A stretch of 60,275 nt of DNA, filler included, from Circinaria calcarea (GCA_051942165.1; 8 parts of 8 records of this genome joined end to end with filler, not necessarily neighbours in it), one strand, 5' to 3'; positions 7,457-53,518 are shown, numbered from the whole stretch's first letter. The notes: generated from the letters alone by a model not told the origin. Made by a program: numbers and translations.

Positions 7457-7556
7457 NNNNNNNNNNNNNNNNNNNNNNNNNNNNNNNNNNNNNNNNNNNN
7501 TTAATTAATTAANNNNNNNNNNNNNNNNNNNNNNNNNNNNNNNNNNNNNNNNNNNN
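7457..7556. other. Artificial contig linker. Identical linkers at 15013-15112, 22565-22664, 30115-30214, 37665-37764, 45210-45309 and 52746-52845
   Basis: 44 N + TTAATTAATTAA (stops in all six frames) + 44 N. Genes are cut mid-frame at the linkers, and contig lengths descend from 7456 to 7430. Confidence 0.98.
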
Positions 7557-15012: not shown

Positions 15013-15138
15013 NNNNNNNNNNNNNNNNNNNNNNNNNNNNNNNNNNNNNNNNNNNNTTAATTAATTAANNNNNNNNNNNNNNNNNNNNNNNNNNNNNNNN
15101 NNNNNNNNNNNNTGTCTTCATGGCTGAATTAATTGCAG

Positions 15139-21921: not shown

Positions 21922-22194
21922 TTACCATTTATCAGTCCTAACCACCCTCTTCTCTTCTTTCAACCCCAATATTTGTCGACGGATCTGCTCGGCCTCTTCG
22001 CAGTTACCTGGGTTGCTCAATACGCCGGACAGATTATTCATGCCCATTAGCATAGTAGGATGCTCTTTGCCTAACACTCTTTCCATTGACGCCAACGCTT
22101 GTCGATGGATTTCCTCGGCCTTTTTATCATTGCCCAGGTTACTTAATACGTCGGCTCGATTATTAATACTAATCAGCGTAATAGGATATAACAA
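21922..22194 (-). pseudogene. Relic TPR repeats (kinesin-light-chain type, as in fungal NLR C-termini)
   Basis: 'NNRADVLSNLG..KKAEEIHRQALASMERVLGKEHPTMLMGMNNLSGVL...EEAEQIRRQIL'. Only about two degenerate repeats, no upstream NB-ARC/NACHT visible, AT-rich flank. Confidence 0.75.
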
Positions 22195-22664
22195 AATACG
22201 TCTGGTTACGTTGTGCCTAAATGTTGAAAGAGGGCATTAAATTGATTAAAGCTATCGATTACCTATGGGTTTCTAACAGTATGTAAGATAATCATGTTGG
22301 AATGTGGTGGAATGTGTGGGCATGCGTGCAGAGATTCTGCAGACCTGCGCATTCAATGCAGAGCATTCCCGGAGGTTTATTGAAATCCTTATTCACGTGT
22401 TTGCTGCTCCGCTTCAAAATGGGCAAGCTATAGAGTTGTGACTATTATAAATACTACTATAATTCCATAGTAATTCGATAGCTTCAACCCATTTGATTTC
22501 CCTTCCGAATACTTAGGCAAAACGTGATTATAGGTATTTTATTATTTTCTACGCAGTTTTTCATNNNNNNNNNNNNNNNNNNNNNNNNNNNNNNNNNNNN
22601 NNNNNNNNTTAATTAATTAANNNNNNNNNNNNNNNNNNNNNNNNNNNNNNNNNNNNNNNNNNNN

Positions 22665-25600
22665 TCACACTTTTGATCCTTCAGCGCATCAACTGCCAAA
22701 GACAAAGCCACAGTTCCACTGGCGCAATTAGTATTGAGGGTCACGTTTGGCCCCTGTAGGTTCAGGTGGTACGCTGTTCGAGCCGAGATGCAGGGGGCAA
22801 CAAAGCCACGGTTTGCCCTCTGAAAGGGATCTCCAAACACTGGCTCCGTCACTGTGTGGTATGAATTTGAGGCCGCACCAACAAAAACTCCGATATCATT
22901 CCTTTCCCTAATAAAGGGGTCAACATTGGCATCATCGAGTGCTTCGAGTGCCACTTCAAGAAACAGACGCTGCTGAGGGTCCATGTCTGTGGCCTCTTCC
23001 CGACCGAGCTTCCAGAACTTGTGATCAAAGTCTTCCATGTCCGAGAGAGTGCCTGCTTTCGGTACCCATAAGCATCCTTCTGGGGCTTTTGTCCCAGTAC
23101 CAGATCTCTCGGTAATTCCCACGTAGCCTTGGAGCAGACGTTGATAAAATAATTCGGGATCTCGGGCCCCAGGAAATCTTCCTGCAATCCCAACAATGGC
23201 AATTTCGCCTGACTCATGTATGGCAGTGTCCATATCCGAGTCTGAATCCGTCATTCCGCCATACGAGCTGGACTCCGAATGTTCCAAATGGGAAGAGTCC
23301 TCTTTATTCGAGGAATCCTCCACGGGGGGTTCCATGGCCTTTTCAACCTTAAAAGGCAACAAAAGTTTTGCTTGTCGCGCTACAGTGGATTGGTGGAACA
23401 GATCAATCATTCGCACGGAGCTCGACGGGAACAGCGTTGACATGGTGCTGTGCAGGCGCGGAATCAAGAAGCTATTTATCTCAATAAATCAACACCAGTA
23501 ATGTGTAGTTCTGGAACGTACCTGTGACCACCGATGTCGAAGAAGTTCACATCGTGACTAGGAGGCCTCTCCAAACCTAGAAGTTCCTGCCAGGCCCTAG
23601 CTAGAGATTCTCTCACTCGATCTTGGGTTTGGGGGACCGATTTTGTCAGCTCGATATTTCCAGGCTTCTTTTCGGTTACGGGCTTTGACGGCTTTTCGCT
23701 GTTACTGCCTTTAGGACTACTTTGGATCAACTTCTGGCGATCCGCCGTAATTTGGGAATGATCGACTTTGCCATTAGCGTTCGTTGGAAGGGAGCTGAGA
23801 TTGTAAATTTTTGATGGCTGTAAATATGTCGGAAGTCTGAGCTTCAGACTGTTAGTGAGGTCTGTGGTGAAGGGGCGAATTGGGGATGTAAAGGCAATCA
23901 ATGCACTGCCATCGCTAGACACTTGTGCAGACACCATTTTTAAGTGCGTATCCGCTTGAAGTATAGCTTCTTCGACCTCCTCTGGCGCAAGTCTATAACC
24001 TAGATTGGTTCAATCATCCAGTTATCTCGCATATAATAACTCATCGGAGATCGTACCTCTGATCTTAAGTTCGCGATCCAATCTTCCTTTTACGAAGAGA
24101 CGACCATCCGCCTGAACAAGGCCACGGTCTCCCGTTCTATACATGCGTACGCCAGTTTTTGGATGAATAGCAAATCTTTGCTCAGTCATGTCTGGCTTTG
24201 ATCGGTATCTAGATTAGGGTTAGAGAACCCAAAACTCTGCAGGTAAGTAGGATAAGCCTTACCCTCTTCCAACCTGGCTACCCGAGACGCAAATCTCGCC
24301 TTCATGGCCACTGAGTAATGTCTGTGTGAAGTTGAGATCGCAGATATGAATCTGCGTGCCTTGGCCTGGAACACCTACTGACACGCTTTGTGGTGCCGCT
24401 TCGTGTCTGGAGAGCTTTTGGTAGGACACAGCAATGCTAGAACATAGTTAGCCGCCAGTCTAGGGAATATGAGGCATAGCAGTTTTACTGACGCTGTCTC
24501 CGTAGGTCCATAGGCATTGACAAGATCGACCCGAGGTTGCCATCGCTGTATCAGGCTCAGTGAAACCGCTTCTCCGCCGATTGAGATTTGTCGGAGGGAC
24601 TCCAGATTCCGTGCCATCGGTAAGGTTGCTAAAGCCGAGGGCGTGATTTGCATAAAGGTGATTGAGTTTTGCTCAATCACGTCGGCAAGGTAATCACCCA
24701 CAAGTGCGTGCGGAAACGCAGCGAAACACAAACACGCGCCGGTGGAAAGAGCCGTCGCCCATTCTAGTATGGATGCATCAAAGGAGAAGGACGCAAATTG
24801 AAGGACACGGGAACCATAACCAACCCTGAATACTCTGTTACTATCTTCAACGAAGCTTGCAAAGTTTCTATGCTCTATCATCACCCCTTTAGGCTCCCCT
24901 ATGATATCGTGAGTGCTTGACCGGTAATCATCGCTTGCTGCTTCGGCAGACGTACCTGTGCTACCTGAAGTGAATATCATGTAGGCCAAGTCGTCTGGTC
25001 GAGTATCTGGAATTATCAATGCTTGTGGTTCGGGATCCATTCTACTTATTGGCAGGTGGTCAATAAGTCGTCCGGTGAAGTCATCAACCCAGGATTGATC
25101 ATGTTTCGTGTCATTCTCAGTGATAATAACTGCAGGGTCGGAAATCTTCATAACGGTCCTTTTACGGATATCCGAGAATTTTGGATCCAAGTAGACAAAT
25201 GCACCTCCAGCCTTATATGTAGCAACTATCCATTCAAGGATATGGAAACCTCGATGGAGATGAAGAAGCACAATATCCCCCTGGTTGACACCATTTGACC
25301 GCAGCACTGTTCAGTTCAGTATACTTTCAAACTTAGCAGGAGTAGAACCTTTACCCTGCGCGCGAGCTGTTGATGCCTTGTAAAGCTCATCGTAAGTCAT
25401 ACTTTCCCCTGATTCTGCAGAAAACAGGGCAACAGAGGTAGGATTGCTCTCAGCATGTAGTTGGAACCAATTGTGGAAGTAAAGCTTTGGAGCAGTGGCT
25501 TGATTAGCAGAGTCAGTGTGCTCACGGGCTGGTAGGGAAATGTATCGTGGCATGCCCGGAATCATAGACAGAGGAACGGGTTCGGTCAATCTACTAAGTC

Positions 25601-27089
25601 TTAGCAGTTCAGTGAACGAAAACTCCATCTCCTTAAGCGCATCGTTGGAGAAGACTGTCGGGTCATAAATGACCTGATATATCATGTCAGCTAAGTGAAT
25701 GCTCAGAAAGGCCAGATGATCATACCCCAAGCTCGACACTGGTTTCGACCTCGAGGAAGCAGAAAAATAGGTCCCACTTTCCTTCAACAGGGTACAAGCG
25801 GCACTTTGGATCAGCCAGCCTAGGAGAATAAGTGACGGCGACTTTGGACGGGCTATACATAACGTTATGAGCACGACCACTTCTTGCAACATCCAGAGGT
25901 GAGAATCTTTCAGCCCGCTTTACTCTGCTGATATTCTTTGACACCGCAGCGATCAAGGCAGCAAGCGTTGTAGATCTTGAATCCAACTGAGCAAAGTCTA
26001 ACAACGGTAGCTTAACTGGCAAAGCATTGGCGAACTGACCAATCGTGCTTTCAAACCCCTGACTTCGACCTGCAAAAGCTACTTCAAGCGCTTGGTCTTC
26101 GCCGTAGGGCGTCTTGCTCTTAGTATGCACAAGAAGACCCAACAGGGTAACGGCGATGCGGAACCAAGACGTCCGATGGGAGTTGCCCCACGCTGCCAAT
26201 TCCTGAAAAAGAAAGTTAGTAAAGCGTGAACGAGCTATTCTTGATTGTCACCGCTGTTACTTCTTTCGGGAAAGTTGTCCACGTCTGTATGCGCCGAAAG
26301 TCCGCAGAGGTGTCTGATAGATTGGATCTTGGTATTTCCCACTCAATAGACCTGGTATTGCGAATTTGATCCAAACAGGTATTCTTGCACTCGAGATAAG
26401 CCTGACTTCCTAACCAGGCTTTCTAGATACCCTCTATTAGTTAGTTATAATTCATCATATATCACACGAACCACACCCTATTGACACCCACATACCTCGA
26501 CAATATGTGCCTGGCTGAAGCGTTCGATATAATCTGGATTGATAGAAGATTCCGCCTTGAACAGTCTCAAGAACTCAGTAGATAGAAGACTCATACTGGT
26601 TCCATCAAGGGCGACGTGATGGGCAACAAGATATAAGAGTGTCATCGAGGTTTGTTGGACAACCAGCCATCGAGCAGGATACTCATGAAAGAGATCAAAC
26701 CCATGACGGAGGGCACTAGCAATGGCCTGGGAGCCTATGTCGTCCTTGGCCTTGGTTATAATCTGAATCATGGGGCATGCTGTGTTGGGATCGTGTTCTT
26801 GAATATGAGGCAGAGCGTCGGAAATATTGAATGTGCAACGTAGAATACCATGTTGCCTGGTCAAGACCCGAATTGCTAACAGAGCGTTAGCTTTCAAGGC
26901 ACAACTGAGCTAGTGAACATAATCCACTCTACCGTGAAGGATATTTTCCAAAGAGCCAGGATCCTCGCTATTAGCAGGGAGAGTCCATTCCAACGTCAAA
27001 TTATATTTCGTGCTCATGGGATCTGTCGTATACTCAATCCAAATACCCTGTTGAGACCTTGTGAGAGGATAAACGGCGCTCAGGGCCAT
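22665..27089 (-). CDS. Hybrid NRPS-PKS with domain order C-A-T-KS, 3' truncated by the contig end
   Basis: C: 'YPLTRSQQGIW', 'HHVALDG' (26601-26621), 'IGQFANALP'. A: 'YMIFTSGSTG', 'FSFDASILEW', 'NAYGPTE'. T: 'FFDIGGHS' (Ser codon split by an intron). KS: 'IAIVGIAGRFPGA', 'MDPQQRLFLE', 'GPNVTLNTNCASG'. The exon junctions I checked join in frame via GT-AG introns. Confidence 0.92.
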
Positions 27090-27918
27090 GTGGTGTTTGA
27101 AACCCCGACGGGAGGGTGAACCACCCGCCTTTGCCTGACCAGAGAGCAAAGCCATGCTGGAGCCGAAAACTGACATGACTGTAAATGACAAAATATAGCG
27201 GGGTAGGTAGGATAGGGGAAATTGAATATGTTGCAATTAGACAGATGGCCGACAGGTTTATATAGCTTTCCCTTATCAAAATCGAGATCTGGAATATATA
27301 AGAACCTTTTCCGGAAGGCCCATGGCCACCTATTTCCGTTACCGTCGCCAACTAAGCTCAGAATCTTTTTAAGTAAACACATCATATTCCCGTCCCCCAT
27401 CCCTTTTACAAATCAGCTTTTCCCTTATGCACAAGGATACACACCTCCATCCCATCCTTTCGATATCGTTGCCTTCCGAACCTGCAGTCCTTGTGGGGCT
27501 GATGAAGCCCTTCTCCAATAGACGTGACCCAAAGAGACACGGGCACACCGCAGTAGGATCTAAGAAGCGAGTTCATCATGACCCAAGGTACGCTTGTGTA
27601 TATGGTGTTGCAAGTAGAGGTTGTCAGCTACATGGTAGGATTCTGAAGGTCCAAGAACTAGCCCACCTAAGCAGGAGATTCCAGGCGATCTCCATCTTTC
27701 AAAGGAAGAGGCGGACCTCGAGACAGTGAAGATGTGCAAATCGACGATGCTGGAATAGGATTGAGAGCGGGTAATCATATTAGGATTTTCGTCACACCAT
27801 ATACTGAATGGCGTAATAGTTTCTAGCCAAACATGGAGGTCCCCACTACTAAGCGCTATCGAGTGATGAATATATGCATGACATTATCTTACTGTCGTAT
27901 AGATTTTGCTGTTCTTCC

Positions 27919-28140
27919 CAGCGCCGCCAGTAGTCCGGACTGTGGACTGACAGTCCAGCTTAACAGTCCGAAACATGTGTGGAAATTGCAGGCAAGTAGG
28001 GCGTTGACTGGGAAACATATATGCACGTAGCAGAAGTTGGCACGTGCGTATATGTTTCCCAGTCAACGCCTTGTTTGCCTGCAATTTCCACACATGTTTC
28101 GGACTGTTAAGCTGGACTGTCTGGACTACTGGCGGCCCTG
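27919..28140. mobile_element. 222-bp non-autonomous hAT-type MITE / foldback element
   Basis: CAG...CTG termini (the right end reads CAGGGCCGCC on the minus strand). ~100-bp inverted arms around a ~13-nt loop. Exact 8-bp direct repeat GTTCTTCC at 27911-27918 and 28141-28148. Confidence 0.88.
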
Positions 28141-29132
28141 GTTCTTCCTTGAAAGCGAGGTATATAAGGAAGATGAGACGGACAGAGAGAAATAGGCGGT
28201 GAACTATTTCGTTGCTTGGAATAAAACTAGAGGGGCTCTTGCTTACACTTGTAATAACTTGGCCATAACTGCCAAGACTGGTAAAGGGAAGAGGGGGCTC
28301 TCGGTCCGAGCCAGTATAACTCTTGACTTGCTTCACGCAGATGCTGAACCCTATCTCTTATCCGGCGGGGTCAAATGACTTCCAGCAAGCCGGGAGCATT
28401 CTTACTCTGTTAGTAAGTTCGATGAGAATGATTCGGTGCTACCATAAATGGGTGAAAATTCCAAGCTAAGAAACAGAAGGAATGGGTAAGCCATATTGCG
28501 TTAGCGTGCCAATATATACGTACCACAGTATACTACCATAAGCCTGACTAATCACTTGGTTACATTTACATAAGAATGGATTGGCGCTGACTTCCTTCGT
28601 AAAGAGCCAGGATTAATCCCGGGGAAAATGCCAAGCAATGGGGGTGACTCACTACCCCGAGGTTAATAGGTTAACTTCACCATCGCGGGGCTTTTTAATA
28701 AATCGCTGTCGCAAATGCCACTAATGTCGTACTATTATAAAGATTGATCAGCTTAAGAGTATGGAATTGCGTATTTCCGGATAATTAAATATAAGTATTT
28801 AATTATGCATGCTTTGCTAATATAGTGCCGCTTCTTGTTTTTGGAAAAAAACAAAAAAGGTAAAATGCTCTCTCTCTTGTTTTCTCTCGGCGCTTTTCGA
28901 TAATCTGCTAGTTGTCACGGGAGCGCAAGTATCATGTAGAATGGTGATGGAATTGCTGGCTTCTAATTTATTGCCTAATCAAGGGGTTTAAGGTTCACTG
29001 GCCTGCTAATGTGCTCCTTCCTCCTCTCCCAAAATCAGTTAGCGAAGCAGCAAAGCGTGTACTCATGAACCTGTCTCTTTCACACTATTATCTGGGCTTG
29101 AATACAGCCCAAATATCACTGCGTCAGGGTGA

Positions 29133-30114
29133 CTAGAAGACTAGCTGGAAGACTGGCTGCGTGACTGTAAGCGGCTTTGTATAGACTTGATCTATCCCAA
29201 GCACACGGTTATTGCTAGGCTTCGCGCCTTGCTTCAGGCGCAAGACATTGCATTCCCTCCGTTGATAGCCCTTGTCAGTTCTGATCAGCCGAATGACGAC
29301 AGTCTCGGGCGTTCCATTTCGGTTGCGTCTCCAGCAGTTCAGTGGTAGCTCGATCTCTTTTCGAAGCACTCCAAACATGTTCATGGCTTCAGCACCTGCC
29401 TTCAGGGACATGTGAAACTGTATACCTTGCTGTGTCCAGCCATACCCGCCATTGAGTCTGTCAACAACCGCGTTCTCAATCACAACCACGTCGCCAGATT
29501 TCTTGAAACAGTCGGGCGATGGCGCGAGCATACCCCATGTCTGATGATCGAATTTCGGATAATCGAATTTCGGAGCATCGGATTTCGGAGCATCGCGTTT
29601 GAGTTTGCGAAAGCACGCTAGTTCTTTCTTTTCAGGCACCGTCCAGGCAAAGATAGATTCATCAGGGGTGGCCGCCAGCAGCTCCTTTTGAAGTCTCATG
29701 AAGGCTTTCTCACCTTCACCGTATTGCGGCGTTAGGCTAACGTTAAAGATGCCAAGCATACTGTAAGCGATGTCTTCAACCCTTGTGGTAGTCCTGCCAG
29801 CCATCCAGCTCATTCGGGTCGCTATACTAGCTCGTTGAATCTCATTCAGAGGATCACCGCTGATCAGGTAGTTCTCGCCGATATTGGTCAGTTCCCTAAG
29901 GAAGCTTGCCAGGCTCTTCTTCGTGCCCAAGTACTTCCATTGGTGATCGTAGAATTCCATTTCTTGAGGTGCCAAGAGCTCCTGCAACGTCCATCCACGT
30001 TCAAACCATTCAGACCACTGACCCACTCGCTTCGAACTTTGGCTCTTGAACACCTGCAGGTCCACGGGCGAACCCACGGCGGGTCCGACTACGTCGGGAA
30101 GATATGCGTAACAG
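29133..30114 (-). CDS. HET (heterokaryon incompatibility) domain protein, 5' truncated
   Basis: 'SEWFERGWTLQELLAP' and 'ATRMSWMAGRTTTRVEDIAYSMLGIF...YGEGEKAFMRLQKELL...DESIFAW'. Confidence 0.9.
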
Positions 30115-30214
30115 NNNNNNNNNNNNNNNNNNNNNNNNNNNNNNNNNNNNNNNNNNNNTTAATTAATTAANNNNNNNNNNNNNNNNNNNNNNNNNNNNNN
30201 NNNNNNNNNNNNNN

Positions 30215-37664: not shown

Positions 37665-37764
37665 NNNNNNNNNNNNNNNNNNNNNNNNNNNNNNNNNNNN
37701 NNNNNNNNTTAATTAATTAANNNNNNNNNNNNNNNNNNNNNNNNNNNNNNNNNNNNNNNNNNNN

Positions 37765-44453: not shown

Positions 44454-45309
44454 GTATCTTGGCCGCTTATGAGAGAACGTTCAGCCCCACAATAGCCAAA
44501 TTGCTAGCAGTTGAAGAATATCTTGCCCAGCCAGCTATGGATTGACGGCGTATGAACAAAAGGGCAAACACAAGTGTGGAGGAAATGGGCACTCATGCCA
44601 TCAGTGAGTGCCCACTTACCTCTAAACCACTTTCCGAGTACTGATCTTTTCTCCAACACTAGCAATCACTTCGGTGCAGATTGGTCATTTTCTTGCTCCG
44701 TTAACCATGCAAGCTGGGTCGTTTTTGGTTCTTTCTATAGCCAAACTAATCACACTCCCAGTTTTAGCAAATAAGGTTCCAGAGTGAGACTCATGTCTGA
44801 AGTTGATTCTATCCCCACTGTGCTGGTGTAGTTGCAACAAAATTGACTCCATGCTTCCTATCTCTTCCCGGCTTCCCGCATTGATAGTTGCAGTCCTCGC
44901 CCACTCCCCATCAACTCTCACCCTGTCTTCACGAATACCCGTTTTGCCTCTTCGGTACTAGAAACCCCCAAACGGCTCCCAGTCACTATCCGAACGCTCT
45001 CACAAGTGGACCCGTCCGGTGTTATCCTCCGTCTCCCTTCCCTCTCCGCGCCCTATCCCTAGCTAGCACTTTCCTCCCCCCTTCCCATCCTCTATCTTCA
45101 CCATCCCAGTTCCCCCTCATCCAAACCTTCCAATCAAGGCACCAACCCACATATCTCCTTCCCTCACCATCTCCGTACCTCCTCCACATATCTCCCTCCC
45201 CCTTCCCCCNNNNNNNNNNNNNNNNNNNNNNNNNNNNNNNNNNNNNNNNNNNNTTAATTAATTAANNNNNNNNNNNNNNNNNNNNNNNNNNNNNNNNNNN
45301 NNNNNNNNN

Positions 45310-52745: not shown

Positions 52746-53518
52746 NNNNNNNNNNNNNNNNNNNNNNNNNNNNNNNNNNNNNNNNNNNNTTAATTAATTA
52801 ANNNNNNNNNNNNNNNNNNNNNNNNNNNNNNNNNNNNNNNNNNNNTAACTTCTCGCTAAACAATAACCTCTAACTTTGTAGGACCCCTCTAATGCTGGTG
52901 GTCCTGCGCCTGAATCTTAGGCTGGAAGGGTCAGTAACTACGGCTGGGGGTAATTCAGGGTTGCAAAGTTTTTTGTCAAGCGCGTGCCTTTCCGACTGCT
53001 CCTTGCTGTGGCATTGTGGACTCTGCCGTATGTAGGGGATAGGGGGATCATCGCTGATGCGGAAGGTATGTAGTACCCGTGTTCCCTTCCCCGGGGGGCC
53101 GCGTAAATGATGTGCATGGTAGCCTAAGACCATTCCAATCCTACCTGGGACCCGGCCTTTTCAAACCACCACCTATCTCGACACCCTACACCAACCAGAG
53201 CGGCTCCCAGTTCGACGGGCGCGCCAATAAGAATCCTACCTGTTGTTGATATTATGTGAATCACCTCCTGCTGAGCTTAGGAGACGCAACGGCAACGTGT
53301 GTTTCATAAGAAAAGGCTTCACTAAGCATCTGACCCCTCTCCTCGTCAAGTGTACCTGCTGTGCGAATACATGATTCGGCTGAAAAGGCTGCCATCAAGC
53401 TGGTGCGGCCCAGCCTATTGCATATAGGTAACTGTGCAGAGTGTTCATTAATATAAGAAACCAATTCGTTGTTATCATGCCTTCTGCAACTCTTTCTCGG
53501 TTTTTCTTTACTAGGATA

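What the first reader, a model, noticed from the sequence alone, without database searches (positions are those of the whole stretch)
22665..27089. NRPS-first hybrid (C-A-T-KS) with an atypical KS active-site loop: TAS1-like architecture
Seen: domains in the order C (HHVALDG), A, T (GGHS), KS, with in-frame splicing at the junctions checked and no stops found. The KS Cys sits in 'NTNCASG' rather than the usual 'TACSS'. Known: typical fungal hybrids are PKS-NRPS. The characterised C-A-PCP-KS enzyme is Magnaporthe TAS1, whose terminal KS cyclises and releases the tetramic acid tenuazonic acid. Swainsonine SwnK starts with A-T-KS and has no C domain. Inference: this may be a TAS1-type tetramic acid synthetase, or a longer NRPS-PKS of unknown product. 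The contig ends just after the KS Cys, so the full architecture is not visible.
Basis: partly seen in the sequence, partly recalled or inferred. Interest (0 to 1): 0.78.

Follow-up and report, generated by a model that had tools for sequence, protein, structure and literature searches.

The report
Truncated lichen-fungus NRPS-ketosynthase hybrid gene
This is the first four-fifths of a lichen-fungus gene for a one-module peptide synthetase fused to a ketosynthase; it is a relative, not a copy, of the tenuazonic acid enzyme TAS1, and its product is unknown.

Summary
On the minus strand, 27176..22665, lies an open gene of 11 exons and 10 GT..AG introns. It encodes 1316 residues in the order C (HHVALDG), A, T (GGHS), KS N-terminal half (Cys in NTNCASG). 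It stops because a 7450-base contig ends there; the window is eight contigs glued by N spacers. An identical deposited protein is named for a Circinaria calcarea MAG.

The protein belongs to the fungal "TAS1 homologue" family of Yun 2015. It is 42-50% identical and collinear to about 40 full-length relatives. It does not sit in the tenuazonic acid lineage: identity to a proxy for that lineage is 34%, and an AU test rejects the grouping (p = 7e-6).

The "atypical" NCAS loop marks its ascomycete clade (24 of 26 relatives). TAS1 itself has TACSS.

All 8 proteins of the TAS1 lineage end after the KS. In the query's lineage many continue with a second carrier domain and a thioesterase, including two of its three nearest relatives. 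That layout matches bacterial MucD/MucE.

The 3' end, the product and the mechanism remain open. This is a new member of a known but uncharacterised kind, of moderate interest.

The parts
22665..27176 (-). Partial gene from start codon to contig end: 11 exons, 10 introns, 1316 codons plus 2 bases, for C-A-T-KS (KS N-terminal half only)
   Evidence: coordinates, GT..AG, no stops. P0001, the deposited model of the same contig, is 100% identical over 97% of the exon 11 query; collinear over residues 1-1316 with the first ~1290 residues of relatives.
26933..27176 (-). Exon 1 (aa 1-81 plus 1 base), ATG at 27176
   Evidence: The N-terminus resembles those of P0003, P0002 and P0021.
26496..26875 (-). 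Exon 2 (aa 82-208), holds the C-domain motif HHVALDG at 26621-26601
   Evidence: Pfam Condensation E 1.9e-09.
26261..26422 (-). Exon 3 (aa 209-262), missing from the deposited model P0001
   Evidence: Weak tblastn matches to P0002, P0003 and P0004. The frame is open. Indels in the related contigs lie in flanking intron 2, not here.
25726..26202 (-). Exon 4 (aa 263-421), C domain continued
   Evidence: About 51% identity to P0002-P0004 by tblastn.
25355..25673 (-). Exon 5 (aa 422-527), end of the C domain and start of the A domain (about 25478)
24956..25306 (-). Exon 6 (aa 528-644), A domain up to TSGSTG
   Evidence: Pfam AMP-binding E 5.9e-16.
24493..24898 (-). Exon 7 (aa 645-779), A domain from EPKGV to YGPTETA. 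Intron 6 before it (24955-24899) is read as coding in the deposited model
   Evidence: Pfam AMP-binding E 2.5e-25..
24263..24436 (-). Exon 8 (aa 780-837), A domain
   Evidence: Pfam AMP-binding E 2.8e-05.
24057..24208 (-). Exon 9 (aa 838-888), A domain (YRTGD region)
23522..23999 (-). Exon 10 (aa 889-1047), C-terminal part of the A domain (Lys966 of NGKVDH at 23769-23767) and first half of the T domain up to GGH
22665..23471 (-). Exon 11 (aa 1048-1316): phosphopantetheine Ser1048 (codon 23523-23522 plus 23471), rest of the T domain to about 23369, acidic Ser-rich linker 23368-23207, KS N-terminal half 23206-22667
   Evidence: Pfam ketoacyl-synt E 2.9e-39 on residues 89-268 of this exon. PDB KS hits.
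22715..22735 (-). KS active-site loop NTNCASG; Cys1297 codon at 22726-22724
   Evidence: The loop is shared by 24 of 26 relatives of the ascomycete clade.
22565..22664 (.). Artificial joint between two contigs (N44, TTAATTAATTAA, N44). This is the reason the gene stops

Best explanation
SHOWN. This is the 5' four-fifths of an intact gene under purifying selection in a lichen-forming ascomycete. The identical deposited protein is named for a Circinaria calcarea MAG. It encodes a single-module NRPS fused to a ketosynthase, of the fungal TAS1-homologue family. It belongs to the branch that does not hold the tenuazonic acid synthetases. That branch is marked in ascomycetes by a (T/V)NCAS(S/G) loop around the KS cysteine.

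INFERRED.
- The A domain (10-residue code DALQIIAIAK) loads an aliphatic amino acid onto Ser1048 of the T domain.
- The N-terminal C domain (HHVALDG) N-acylates it with an acyl- or beta-ketoacyl-CoA.
- The chain then moves to KS Cys1297.
- The missing 3' part most likely encodes the KS C-terminal half with His and Asn, then a second carrier domain and a thioesterase. This is the layout in Cudoniella and Truncatella.
- In that layout the KS would pass the chain to the second carrier. The route would be condensation with a malonyl unit loaded in trans, as in bacterial MucD/MucE. The thioesterase would then release a pyrrolidine-2,4-dione (tetramic acid) type product.

My odds: family and branch about 0.9; T-TE continuation about 0.65; Muc-like chemistry about 0.4-0.45.
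For: Gene model and selection.

Family: the protein is collinear over 1-1316 with P0002 (48.2%), P0003 (47.9%), P0004 (47.7%) and P0021 (47.6%). The fungal family forms one clade of 51 rows (SH-aLRT 100), and the query sits in a 27-row ascomycete clade (100). In the KS-only tree, 34 fungal KSs plus the query form one clade (99) against 20 bacterial KSs.

Not the TAS1 lineage:
- P0377 is the lineage proxy; its KS scores 451 bits to the TAS1 KS structure 6kog.
- P0377 is only 34% identical to the query.
- The AU test gives p = 7.3e-06.
- The query's KS part scores 82 bits to 6kog, no better than bacterial KSs.

Architecture of relatives:
- 0 of 8 TAS1-lineage proteins have more than 33 aa after the KS.
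- In the other lineage, 22 of 42 have a carrier-like G-x-D-S motif about 70 aa after the KS.
- 16 of 42 have a GxSxG about 200 aa after the KS.
- Pfam confirms a second PP-binding stretch, a thioesterase or alpha/beta hydrolase domain, or both, in P0003, P0029, P0033, P0034, P0042, P0269, P0053 and P0420.

The KS is internal in P0241 and P0150, which read C-A-T-KS-T-C-(A)-T-R. There the KS cannot be the releasing domain.

The A code is identical in 6 relatives (5 of them already). MucD/MucE chemistry comes from passages of PMC10161427.
Against: - The 3' end is not in the window or in any source I could reach, so T-TE is extrapolated from relatives.
- The third nearest relative, Monascus (P0002, and P0416 from another source), ends 67 aa after the KS, just before the place of the carrier serine.
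- 11 of 42 relatives in this lineage have fewer than 50 aa after the KS. Some of these are truncated gene models: Gloeophyllum is 1558 vs 2062 aa and Truncatella 1616 vs 1821 aa.
- All family members examined share TAS1's Cys-His-Asn set (HGSGT, KGNxGN). In TAS1 that set serves Dieckmann cyclisation, not chain extension.
- No acyltransferase is known for these fungal proteins.
- P0241 and P0150 could be fused gene models.
- No member of this branch has a known product.
- The trees are 'quick' LG+G4 trees, and the AU group was named after seeing the tree.
Confidence: 0.5

Rival explanations
1. TAS1-type mechanism. The protein ends shortly after the KS (C-A-T-KS, about 1600 aa). The C domain joins acetoacetyl-CoA or another beta-ketoacyl-CoA to the carrier-bound amino acid. 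The terminal KS (Cys-His-Asn) closes and releases a 3-acyl tetramic acid by Dieckmann cyclisation. The product is tenuazonic acid or an analogue.
For: - The visible domain order is the same as in TAS1.
- The Cys-His-Asn set is conserved in all relatives examined.
- The nearest relative by KS identity, Monascus (72% over 180 aa), ends 67 aa after the KS in two independent sequences.
- The A-domain code resembles that of the TAS1 lineage: DALQIIAIAK vs DALH(I/V/L)VAV(I/V)K in 7 of its 8 rows (P0377 DALHVVAYVK; P0366 has T at the fourth place).
Against: - The query is outside the TAS1 lineage.
- Several fungi carry one gene of each lineage: Hirsutella rhossiliensis has P0018 and P0368, and Beauveria and Xylariaceae likewise. 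The two lineages are therefore old paralogues, not interchangeable orthologues.
- The Cys loop differs from TAS1's.
- Two of the three nearest relatives carry T-TE.
Confidence: 0.3
2. Part of a longer assembly line. The KS is internal and is followed by a carrier domain and a further NRPS module with a reductase (C-A-T-KS-T-C-A-T-R), or by AT/KR/ACP domains. The product would be larger.
For: Drechmeria P0241 (2814 aa) and Conoideocrella P0150 (2959 aa) are 50-55% identical to proteins of the D-like clade over C-A-T-KS and continue with T-C-(A)-T-R.
Against: - These two are closer to the D-like clade than to the query's nearest relatives.
- None of the 66 family rows lists an AT (PF00698) or KR (PF08659) domain.
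- The three nearest relatives do not have this form.
Confidence: 0.1
3. A decaying pseudogene or an assembly chimera that only looks like a gene.
For: The gene is truncated, the assembly is very fragmented (contigs of about 7.45 kb), no holder run on record as RNA was listed, and the deposited model differs from mine in three places.
Against: - 3950 coding bases are free of stops once ten canonical introns are removed.
- All catalytic motifs are intact.
- A 92-94% identical copy in an independent run has its indels only in introns, and 27 of 40 listed substitutions are at third codon positions.
- The related contig reads on past the contig end as C-N-V-A-I-V-G-G-V-S-V. This is my own reading of the 30 loose letters. 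It matches the CD(V/A)A(I/V)VGG(I/V)SV of P0002, P0003 and P0004, except N for D after the Cys.
Confidence: 0.03

Closest known systems
TAS1, tenuazonic acid synthetase 1 of Pyricularia (Magnaporthe) oryzae; KS structure 6KOG; Yun et al. 2015 (PMC4640141)
   Same: Fungal, NRPS-first, one module C-A-PCP followed by a KS. The HHxxxDG, carrier serine and KS cysteine are present. Relatives of the query share TAS1's Cys-His-Asn set.
   Different: The query lies on the other main branch of the family. Its KS N-terminal half scores only 82 bits to 6KOG, against 451 bits for the whole KS of a true sub-clade relative. Its Cys loop is NTNCASG, against LNTACSSA in TAS1. TAS1-lineage proteins end after the KS, while the query's lineage often adds T-TE.
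Uncharacterised TAS1 homologues of Yun's sub-clade D and allies, for example Hirsutella minnesotensis HIM_00271 (P0033), Metarhizium (P0019, P0026), Cudoniella (P0003), Truncatella (P0004, P0420), Monascus (P0002)
   Same: 42-50% identity, collinear over all 1316 residues. They share the NCAS loop and a nearly identical A-domain code.
   Different: There is no close orthologue; the best match is 48-50%. The query lies in an unresolved basal group with Cudoniella, Monascus and Truncatella, outside the 23-row D-like clade. It comes from a lichen-forming fungus.
MucD (C-A-PCP) plus MucE (KS-ACP-TE) of Streptococcus mutans, and the reutericyclin synthetase pair (PMC10161427)
   Same: The domain order C-A-T-KS-T-TE of the query's fuller relatives matches MucD and MucE laid end to end. 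Neither has an AT domain. Both start with a C domain that N-acylates one amino acid.
   Different: The bacterial system is two proteins, and sequence kinship was not tested here. The query's own T-TE is not visible. The MucE KS triad was not examined, whereas the fungal KSs have Asn in place of the second His.
SwnK (A-T-KS-AT-KR-ACP-R) and AnATPKS (fungal NRPS-PKS hybrids)
   Same: NRPS part before the KS. The architectures come from passages of PMC8403587 and PMC8582187.
   Different: Those enzymes lack the N-terminal C domain and have AT and KR domains. No relative of the query lists AT or KR.

Membership tests
TAS1 homologue family (fungal C-A-PCP-KS hybrids, Yun 2015 sub-clades A-D) | Domain order C, A, PCP, KS in one fungal protein | tested here: met
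   Collinear with about 40 full-length relatives.
TAS1 homologue family (fungal C-A-PCP-KS hybrids, Yun 2015 sub-clades A-D) | KS falls in the fungal clade, separate from bacterial type I KSs | tested here: met
   KS-only tree: 34 fungal KSs plus the query form one clade, SH-aLRT 99, against 20 bacterial KSs. Whole-length tree: 51 rows, support 100.
TAS1 homologue family (fungal C-A-PCP-KS hybrids, Yun 2015 sub-clades A-D) | KS catalytic set Cys-His-Asn | tested here: inconclusive
   Cys1297 is present. The His and Asn positions lie beyond the contig end. In the first set (38 fungal relatives plus the outgroup-like row P0119), 38 of 39 rows have HGSGT (P0119 HGTGT) and 36 of 39 match KGNxGN.
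TAS1 sensu stricto (tenuazonic acid lineage, sub-clade A) | Groups with TAS1 and its 47-50% identical relatives | tested here: not met
   Identity to the proxy P0377 is 34%. The AU test rejects the grouping, p = 7.3e-06. TAS1's own sequence could not be put in the tree.
TAS1 sensu stricto (tenuazonic acid lineage, sub-clade A) | Protein ends directly after the KS | not testable with these tools
   The contig ends 19 codons after the Cys. No other contig of the window holds the rest. No whole genome is held.
TAS1 sensu stricto (tenuazonic acid lineage, sub-clade A) | Makes tenuazonic acid from L-Ile and acetoacetyl-CoA | not testable with these tools
   This needs expression and chemistry. The A code DALQIIAIAK is similar to, but not identical with, the lineage's DALH(I/V/L)VAV(I/V)K (7 of its 8 rows).
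MucD/MucE-type tetramate line (C-A-PCP + KS-ACP-TE) | Carrier domain and thioesterase after the KS, no AT | not testable with these tools
   Not visible for the query. Present in the nearest relatives P0003 and P0420 and absent in P0002.
MucD/MucE-type tetramate line (C-A-PCP + KS-ACP-TE) | Sequence kinship with MucD/MucE | not tested
SwnK / AnATPKS-type fungal NRPS-PKS | A-T-KS-AT-KR-ACP with no N-terminal C domain | tested here: not met
   An N-terminal C domain is present. None of the 66 family rows lists AT or KR.
Fungal PKS-NRPS hybrids | PKS module first, NRPS module last | tested here: not met
   The order is reversed.

The most novel reading that the evidence does not exclude
The Circinaria gene may be a lichen member of an uncharacterised and apparently undescribed architecture, C-A-T-KS-T-TE. 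This would be the fungal, single-protein counterpart of the bacterial MucD/MucE (reutericyclin/mutanocyclin) line. In it, an AT-less KS with a Cys-His-Asn set and an NCAS loop would extend an N-acyl amino acid onto a second carrier, and a thioesterase would close the ring. On that reading TAS1's 'KS as cyclase' is the derived, shortened form, and lichens would hold new tetramic acids.
Probability: 0.4. Interest if true: 0.55.

Novelty: new member of a known kind. Interest (0 to 1): 0.35.

Why it matters
NRPS-first hybrids are rare among characterised fungal megasynthases. In the passages I read, only TAS1, SwnK and AnATPKS are named as characterised.

This gene adds a lichen-forming fungus to the TAS1-homologue family. 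More usefully, it draws attention to a point the family's founding paper did not record. That paper tabulated HIM_00271, for example, as plain C-A-PCP-KS. Yet most fuller gene models on the non-TAS1 branch carry a second carrier domain and a thioesterase. Two carry a whole further module.

If the KS of that branch extends or transfers the chain rather than releasing it, the family holds at least two chemistries. Annotation pipelines that name all of these proteins 'Hybrid PKS-NRPS synthetase TAS1' (P0021, P0026) would then be misleading about mycotoxin potential.

For the window itself the value is limited. The gene is cut, already deposited as a hypothetical protein, and has no product.

Tried and rejected
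1. Whole genome: none is held, so the adjoining contig could not be sought.

2. The other seven contigs of the window: tblastn with P0002-P0004 found no KS C-terminal part.

3. Sequencing runs: one DNA run (coded X1, labelled a biocrust metagenome) held 0.09 of the sampled words, and no RNA holder was listed. Laid on the contig, it gave three contigs at 92-94% identity covering 22667-26766. Its first contig runs on for a loose end of 255 letters (median length; by my arithmetic, 1841 minus 1419, up to about 420 bases), but only 30 letters are shown. The upstream part, 26767-30114, was uncovered except for 31 bases.

4. Profile search of 1.84 billion representatives (A-T-KS profile A2): the best 150 were almost all giant multi-module synthetases ranked by summed scores. 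It was useless for finding TAS1's sub-clade and yielded only P0150 and P0241.

5. Word-indexed search with the Gloeophyllum KS region: multi-KS bacterial proteins crowded the list and no sub-clade A member appeared.

6. TAS1's own sequence could not be brought into a tree. It is seen only in printed alignments, so P0377 served as the proxy.

7. JGI metagenome contigs: 139 pattern matches, none confirmed.

8. Alignment A1 would have given a profile of 1597 positions, over the limit, and was dropped.

9. Pfam on the neighbouring ORFs 29136-30113(-) and 27887-28357(-): no family.

10. Earlier findings of this scan: nothing by place, words or sequence that bears on this.

11. Literature. No paper holds the strings C-A-T-KS-T-TE, C-A-T-KS-ACP-TE or four similar ones. 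Nothing on this gene type appeared among the 15 of 219 listed papers that hold at least two of lichen, NRPS-PKS and tenuazonic acid, or among the 4 papers with Circinaria plus biosynthetic gene cluster. PMC11942696 concerns a different Beauveria gene.

12. Considered and rejected: SwnK-like continuation (no AT or KR in any relative) and pseudogene (see rivals).
Full report
WHAT THE WINDOW IS. The 60275-base window is not one piece of DNA. Seven joints of N44-TTAATTAATTAA-N44 split it into eight contigs of about 7.45 kb. The finding lies on the contig 22665..30114. No whole genome is held.

A search with the last exon found a deposited protein, P0001. It is 100% identical over 97% of the query, 1271 aa, marked partial, and sits on a contig of 7450 bases. 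Its source name is 'MAG: hypothetical protein Q9187_005564, partial [Circinaria calcarea]'. Circinaria calcarea is, from my own knowledge, a crustose lichen-forming ascomycete.

THE OBSERVATION. The gene is on the minus strand. Reading 27500..22665 and joining by coordinates gives 11 exons and 10 introns of 48-73 nt. All introns are GT..AG. There are no stops in 3950 coding bases, which encode 1316 residues.

Pfam on single exons gives three families:
- Condensation on exon 2 (E 1.9e-09) and weakly on exon 4
- AMP-binding on exons 6, 7 and 8 (5.9e-16, 2.5e-25, 2.8e-05)
- ketoacyl-synt N-terminal domain on exon 11 (2.9e-39)

The carrier domain gave no hit on single exons because intron 10 splits it at GGH|S. 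Joined, it reads FFDIGGHSFLIPRL, against FFDIGGHSLLVPRL in Monascus. HHVALDG is at 26621-26601. NTNCASG is at 22735-22715. The contig ends 19 codons after the Cys.

The start at 27176 gives MSVFGSSMALLSG, which matches MSFFGDSMTLISG (Cudoniella) and MSCFKGPMRVISG (Monascus).

My model differs from the deposited one in three places, judged against relatives:
- It keeps exon 3 (54 aa).
- It removes intron 6, which the deposited model reads as 19 extra residues inside TSGSTG/EPKGV.
- It keeps FLIPRLHS after GGHS.

INDEPENDENT SUPPORT THAT THE GENE IS LIVE. One public DNA run (coded X1, labelled a biocrust metagenome) holds three contigs that cover 22667-26766. Differences are 103 in 1419, 126 in 1519 and 70 in 1158 positions.

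All 9 listed indels lie inside my introns 2, 5, 6 and 8, and none lies in an exon. Of the 40 substitutions displayed (245 more were not shown), 27 are at third codon positions, 7 at first and 6 at second. In the KS part the figure is 23 of 31 at third positions.

The first related contig runs past the end of our contig. Its 30 loose letters, read by me on the gene strand after the Cys codon at 22669-22667, give N-V-A-I-V-G-G-V-S-V. Relatives have D-(V/A)-A-(I/V)-V-G-G-(I/V)-S-V there. So the KS goes on normally in the sister strain.

WHAT FAMILY. The spliced protein aligns end to end (1-1316) with the first ~1290 residues of fungal proteins of 1450-1890 aa:
- Monascus purpureus P0002, 48.2%
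- Cudoniella acicularis P0003, 47.9%
- Truncatella angustata P0004, 47.7%
- Lasiodiplodia P0021, 47.6%
- Metarhizium P0019, 45.3%
- basidiomycetes, about 40%

In one search, 66 of the 120 listed rows are of this kind, and none lists an AT (PF00698) or KR (PF08659) domain. A whole-length search with P0001 listed 89 such rows before the first plain NRPS. The best match apart from itself was 48%. There is thus no close orthologue and no characterised near relative.

This family is in print. Yun et al. 2015 (PMC4640141) described TAS1 as C-A-PCP-KS of 1602 aa. I read passages, supplement part 3 and supplement passages. They report the following:
- Homologues occur in Ascomycota and Basidiomycota.
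[quoted passage not shown] - Sub-clades B and C are basidiomycetes (Gloeophyllum, Galerina, Laccaria, 36-38%).
- Sub-clade D is mainly insect fungi and Fusarium (Metarhizium 36-37%, Hirsutella minnesotensis HIM_00271 35%).
- The catalytic set is Cys-His-Asn.

Several of these very proteins are in my set: P0033 is HIM_00271, P0056 is Gloeophyllum, P0057 is Galerina and P0063 is Laccaria.

WHERE THE QUERY SITS. I could not bring TAS1's own sequence into a script. As a proxy I used P0377 from Thermothelomyces heterothallicus, which by my recollection belongs to the genus now used for Myceliophthora thermophila. Its KS scores 451 bits to the TAS1 KS structure 6kog. A sub-clade D Metarhizium protein scores 220 bits. 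The query's KS half scores 82 bits, ranked eighth behind bacterial KSs.

A tree of 53 rows over the query's 1316 columns (IQ-TREE quick, LG+G4, SH-aLRT) gives these groups:
- The fungal family forms one clade of 51 rows (100) against two outgroup rows.
- A TAS1 lineage has 8 rows (95): P0377, Nemania, Xylariaceae FL0255, two Aspergillus, Beauveria gryllotalpidicola, a second Hirsutella rhossiliensis protein and Botryobasidium.
- A second lineage has 43 rows (96). It holds the basidiomycete groups and an ascomycete clade of 27 rows (100).

The query is in that ascomycete clade. It sits in an unresolved basal group with Truncatella and (Monascus + Cudoniella), beside a 23-row clade (100) that contains Yun's sub-clade D members. 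An earlier 40-row tree gave the same place.

Holding the query with the TAS1 lineage costs 172.5 log-likelihood units, AU p = 7.3e-06. The caveat is that the group was named after the tree was seen.

A KS-only tree on 180 residues puts 34 fungal KSs plus the query in one clade (99), apart from 20 bacterial KSs. The query falls with Monascus (72% identical), Cudoniella (68%) and Truncatella (65%), and is 34% identical to P0377.

Hirsutella rhossiliensis (P0018 and P0368), Beauveria and Xylariaceae each have one gene in each lineage. The lineages are therefore old paralogues.

THE 'ATYPICAL' LOOP. TAS1 has LNTACSSA (supplementary figure 13 of Yun 2015). The TAS1 lineage has (T/A)AC(A/S)S, and most basidiomycetes have TACSSG. 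In the 27-row ascomycete clade, 24 of 26 relatives have NCAS. The exceptions are P0027 (TSCSSG) and P0040 (TNCSSS). The basidiomycete rows P0013 and P0297 have VNCAS.

So the loop really differs from the usual DTACSS and from TAS1's. But it is a clade signature, not a peculiarity of this gene.

OTHER CATALYTIC FEATURES. Of the first set (38 fungal relatives plus the outgroup-like row P0119), 38 of 39 rows have HGSGT (P0119 HGTGT) and 36 of 39 match KGNxGN. The latter is Asn where type I KSs have the second His, as in TAS1. The query's own His and Asn lie beyond the contig end.

I worked out the ten A-domain pocket positions by counting from the FDxS and NxYGPTE motifs against my recollection of the GrsA numbering. 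They read DALQIIAIAK. This code is identical in Hirsutella rhossiliensis, two Neonectria, Ilyonectria, Cylindrodendrum and Polyplosphaeria. It is one residue away (DALQIVAIAK) in many others. Basidiomycetes mostly have DALHIVAVVK, and seven of the eight TAS1-lineage rows read DALH(I/V/L)VAV(I/V)K (P0377 DALHVVAYVK; Botryobasidium P0366 has T at the fourth place).

TAS1 loads Ile. A similar aliphatic amino acid is therefore a fair guess, but only a guess.

WHAT COMES AFTER THE KS IN RELATIVES. All 8 proteins of the TAS1 lineage end 13-33 aa after the KS.

In the other lineage:
- 22 of 42 have a carrier-like G-(L/M)-D-S motif 66-86 aa after the KS.
- 16 of 42 have a GxSxG 186-218 aa after the KS.
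- 17 of 42 have 290 aa or more after the KS.
- 11 of 42 have fewer than 50 aa after the KS.

Pfam confirms a second PP-binding stretch in P0003, P0029, P0042, P0269 and P0053. It confirms a thioesterase or alpha/beta hydrolase domain in P0003, P0029, P0033, P0034, P0042, P0269 and P0053.

Short forms are partly artefacts of gene calling. Gloeophyllum is 1558 aa ('partial') in one source and 2062 aa with a thioesterase in another (P0269). Truncatella is 1616 aa in one annotation and 1821 aa in another, the latter with a carrier domain at 1451-1490 and a hydrolase at 1570-1684 (P0420).

Of the query's three nearest relatives, Cudoniella and Truncatella are C-A-T-KS-T-TE. Monascus ends at ...DTDLKSS..., just where the others read DTDLR(L/S)(A/H)GLDS, and two independent sequences agree on this.

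Two further members read C-A-T-KS-T-C-(A)-T-R: Drechmeria coniospora P0241 (2814 aa) and Conoideocrella luteorostrata P0150 (2959 aa). They are 50-55% identical to the D-like clade over C-A-T-KS. If these are single proteins, the KS there is internal and cannot be the releasing domain.

Yun's supplementary table lists HIM_00271 as plain C-A-PCP-KS. No paper in the library holds the strings C-A-T-KS-T-TE, C-A-T-KS-ACP-TE or four similar ones.

HOW IT MOST LIKELY WORKS.
Shown: an intact C domain motif, A-domain core motifs, the carrier serine and the KS cysteine, in a gene under purifying selection.

Inferred: the A domain loads an aliphatic amino acid on T1, the C domain N-acylates it from a CoA thioester, and the chain goes to Cys1297.

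From there two routes are open.
- Route 1 is TAS1's (passages of PMC4640141 and PMC8788799). The acyl group is acetoacetyl, and the KS, using His as base, closes the ring by Dieckmann cyclisation and releases a 3-acyl tetramic acid.
- Route 2 is that of MucD (C-A-PCP) and MucE (KS-ACP-TE) (passages of PMC10161427). The KS condenses the N-acyl amino acid with a malonyl unit that a separate transacylase loads on the second carrier. [quoted passage not shown]

The T-TE tails and the two longer relatives favour route 2, or at least hand-over to a second carrier, for this lineage. The shared Cys-His-Asn set, the lack of a known fungal transacylase partner and the short Monascus form favour route 1.

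I put the T-TE continuation for the Circinaria gene at about 0.65. I put route 2 at about 0.4-0.45 and route 1 at about 0.3. Either route gives a tetramic-acid-type product. Tenuazonic acid itself is unlikely.

SURROUNDINGS. Upstream of the gene, the contig holds a 224-base hairpin-like inverted repeat at 27918-28141. It also holds an ORF at 29136-30113(-), cut by the other contig end. That ORF has no Pfam hit but resembles DUF8212/HET-associated ascomycete proteins in the ESM Atlas (score 0.96, a lead only).

No transcription factor, transporter or tailoring gene is visible, so no cluster can be described. The TPR ORF at 21925-22236 belongs to another contig.

VERDICT. The gene is a new, truncated member of a family known since 2015, on its uncharacterised branch. 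Interest is moderate to low for the window itself. It would be higher if the T-TE architecture and a second chemistry are borne out.

Noticed in passing
window 7457-7556, 15013-15112, 22565-22664, 30115-30214, 37665-37764, 45210-45309, 52746-52845: The window is eight separate contigs of about 7.45 kb joined by N44-TTAATTAATTAA-N44 spacers. Neighbours across a spacer are not genomic neighbours.
   Followed up: yes
window 22665-27176 (-) versus P0001: The deposited gene model of this contig (1271 aa) skips exon 3 (26422-26261). It reads intron 6 (24955-24899) as 19 extra residues inside the A-domain core motif. It also drops eight residues after the carrier serine. That is why it lists no PP-binding domain.
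   Followed up: yes
window 27918-28141: A hairpin-like inverted repeat upstream of the gene. The inner arms are 80 nt at 95% complementarity, 13 nt apart, and the outer arms are 26 nt. A 31-base piece of it (28112-28142) also occurs in a short contig of run X1. It may be a small mobile element.
   Followed up: partly
window 29136-30113 (-): An ORF of 326 codons cut by the contig end. It has no Pfam hit. Its ESM Atlas feature neighbours are ascomycete DUF8212 proteins, some with HET domains (score 0.96, a lead only).
   Followed up: partly
window 21925-22236 (-), on the neighbouring contig: An ORF with TPR_10 and TPR_12 repeats (E 4.8e-14). It is unrelated to the finding because it lies across a spacer.
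   Followed up: partly
relatives P0003, P0420, P0029, P0033, P0034, P0042, P0269, P0053: 'TAS1 homologues' of the non-TAS1 branch carry a second carrier domain and a thioesterase after the KS (C-A-T-KS-T-TE). This layout is collinear with bacterial MucD plus MucE. I found no paper that uses such an architecture string.
   Followed up: partly
relatives P0241 (Drechmeria coniospora, 2814 aa) and P0150 (Conoideocrella luteorostrata, 2959 aa): Members of the same KS clade continue as KS-T-C-(A)-T-R, a further NRPS module with a reductase. They could be one protein or fused gene models.
   Followed up: partly
relatives P0018 / P0368 (Hirsutella rhossiliensis); P0023, P0028 / P0367 (Beauveria); P0020 / P0375 (Xylariaceae): The same fungus or genus holds one gene in each of the two main lineages. 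The lineages are therefore old paralogues, and the automatic name 'Hybrid PKS-NRPS synthetase TAS1' on P0021 and P0026 does not imply tenuazonic acid synthesis.
   Followed up: partly
relative P0002 / P0416 (Monascus purpureus): The protein ends at DTDLKSS..., exactly where relatives have the carrier motif DTDLR..GLDS. This suggests a lost or broken T-TE tail in Monascus.
   Followed up: no
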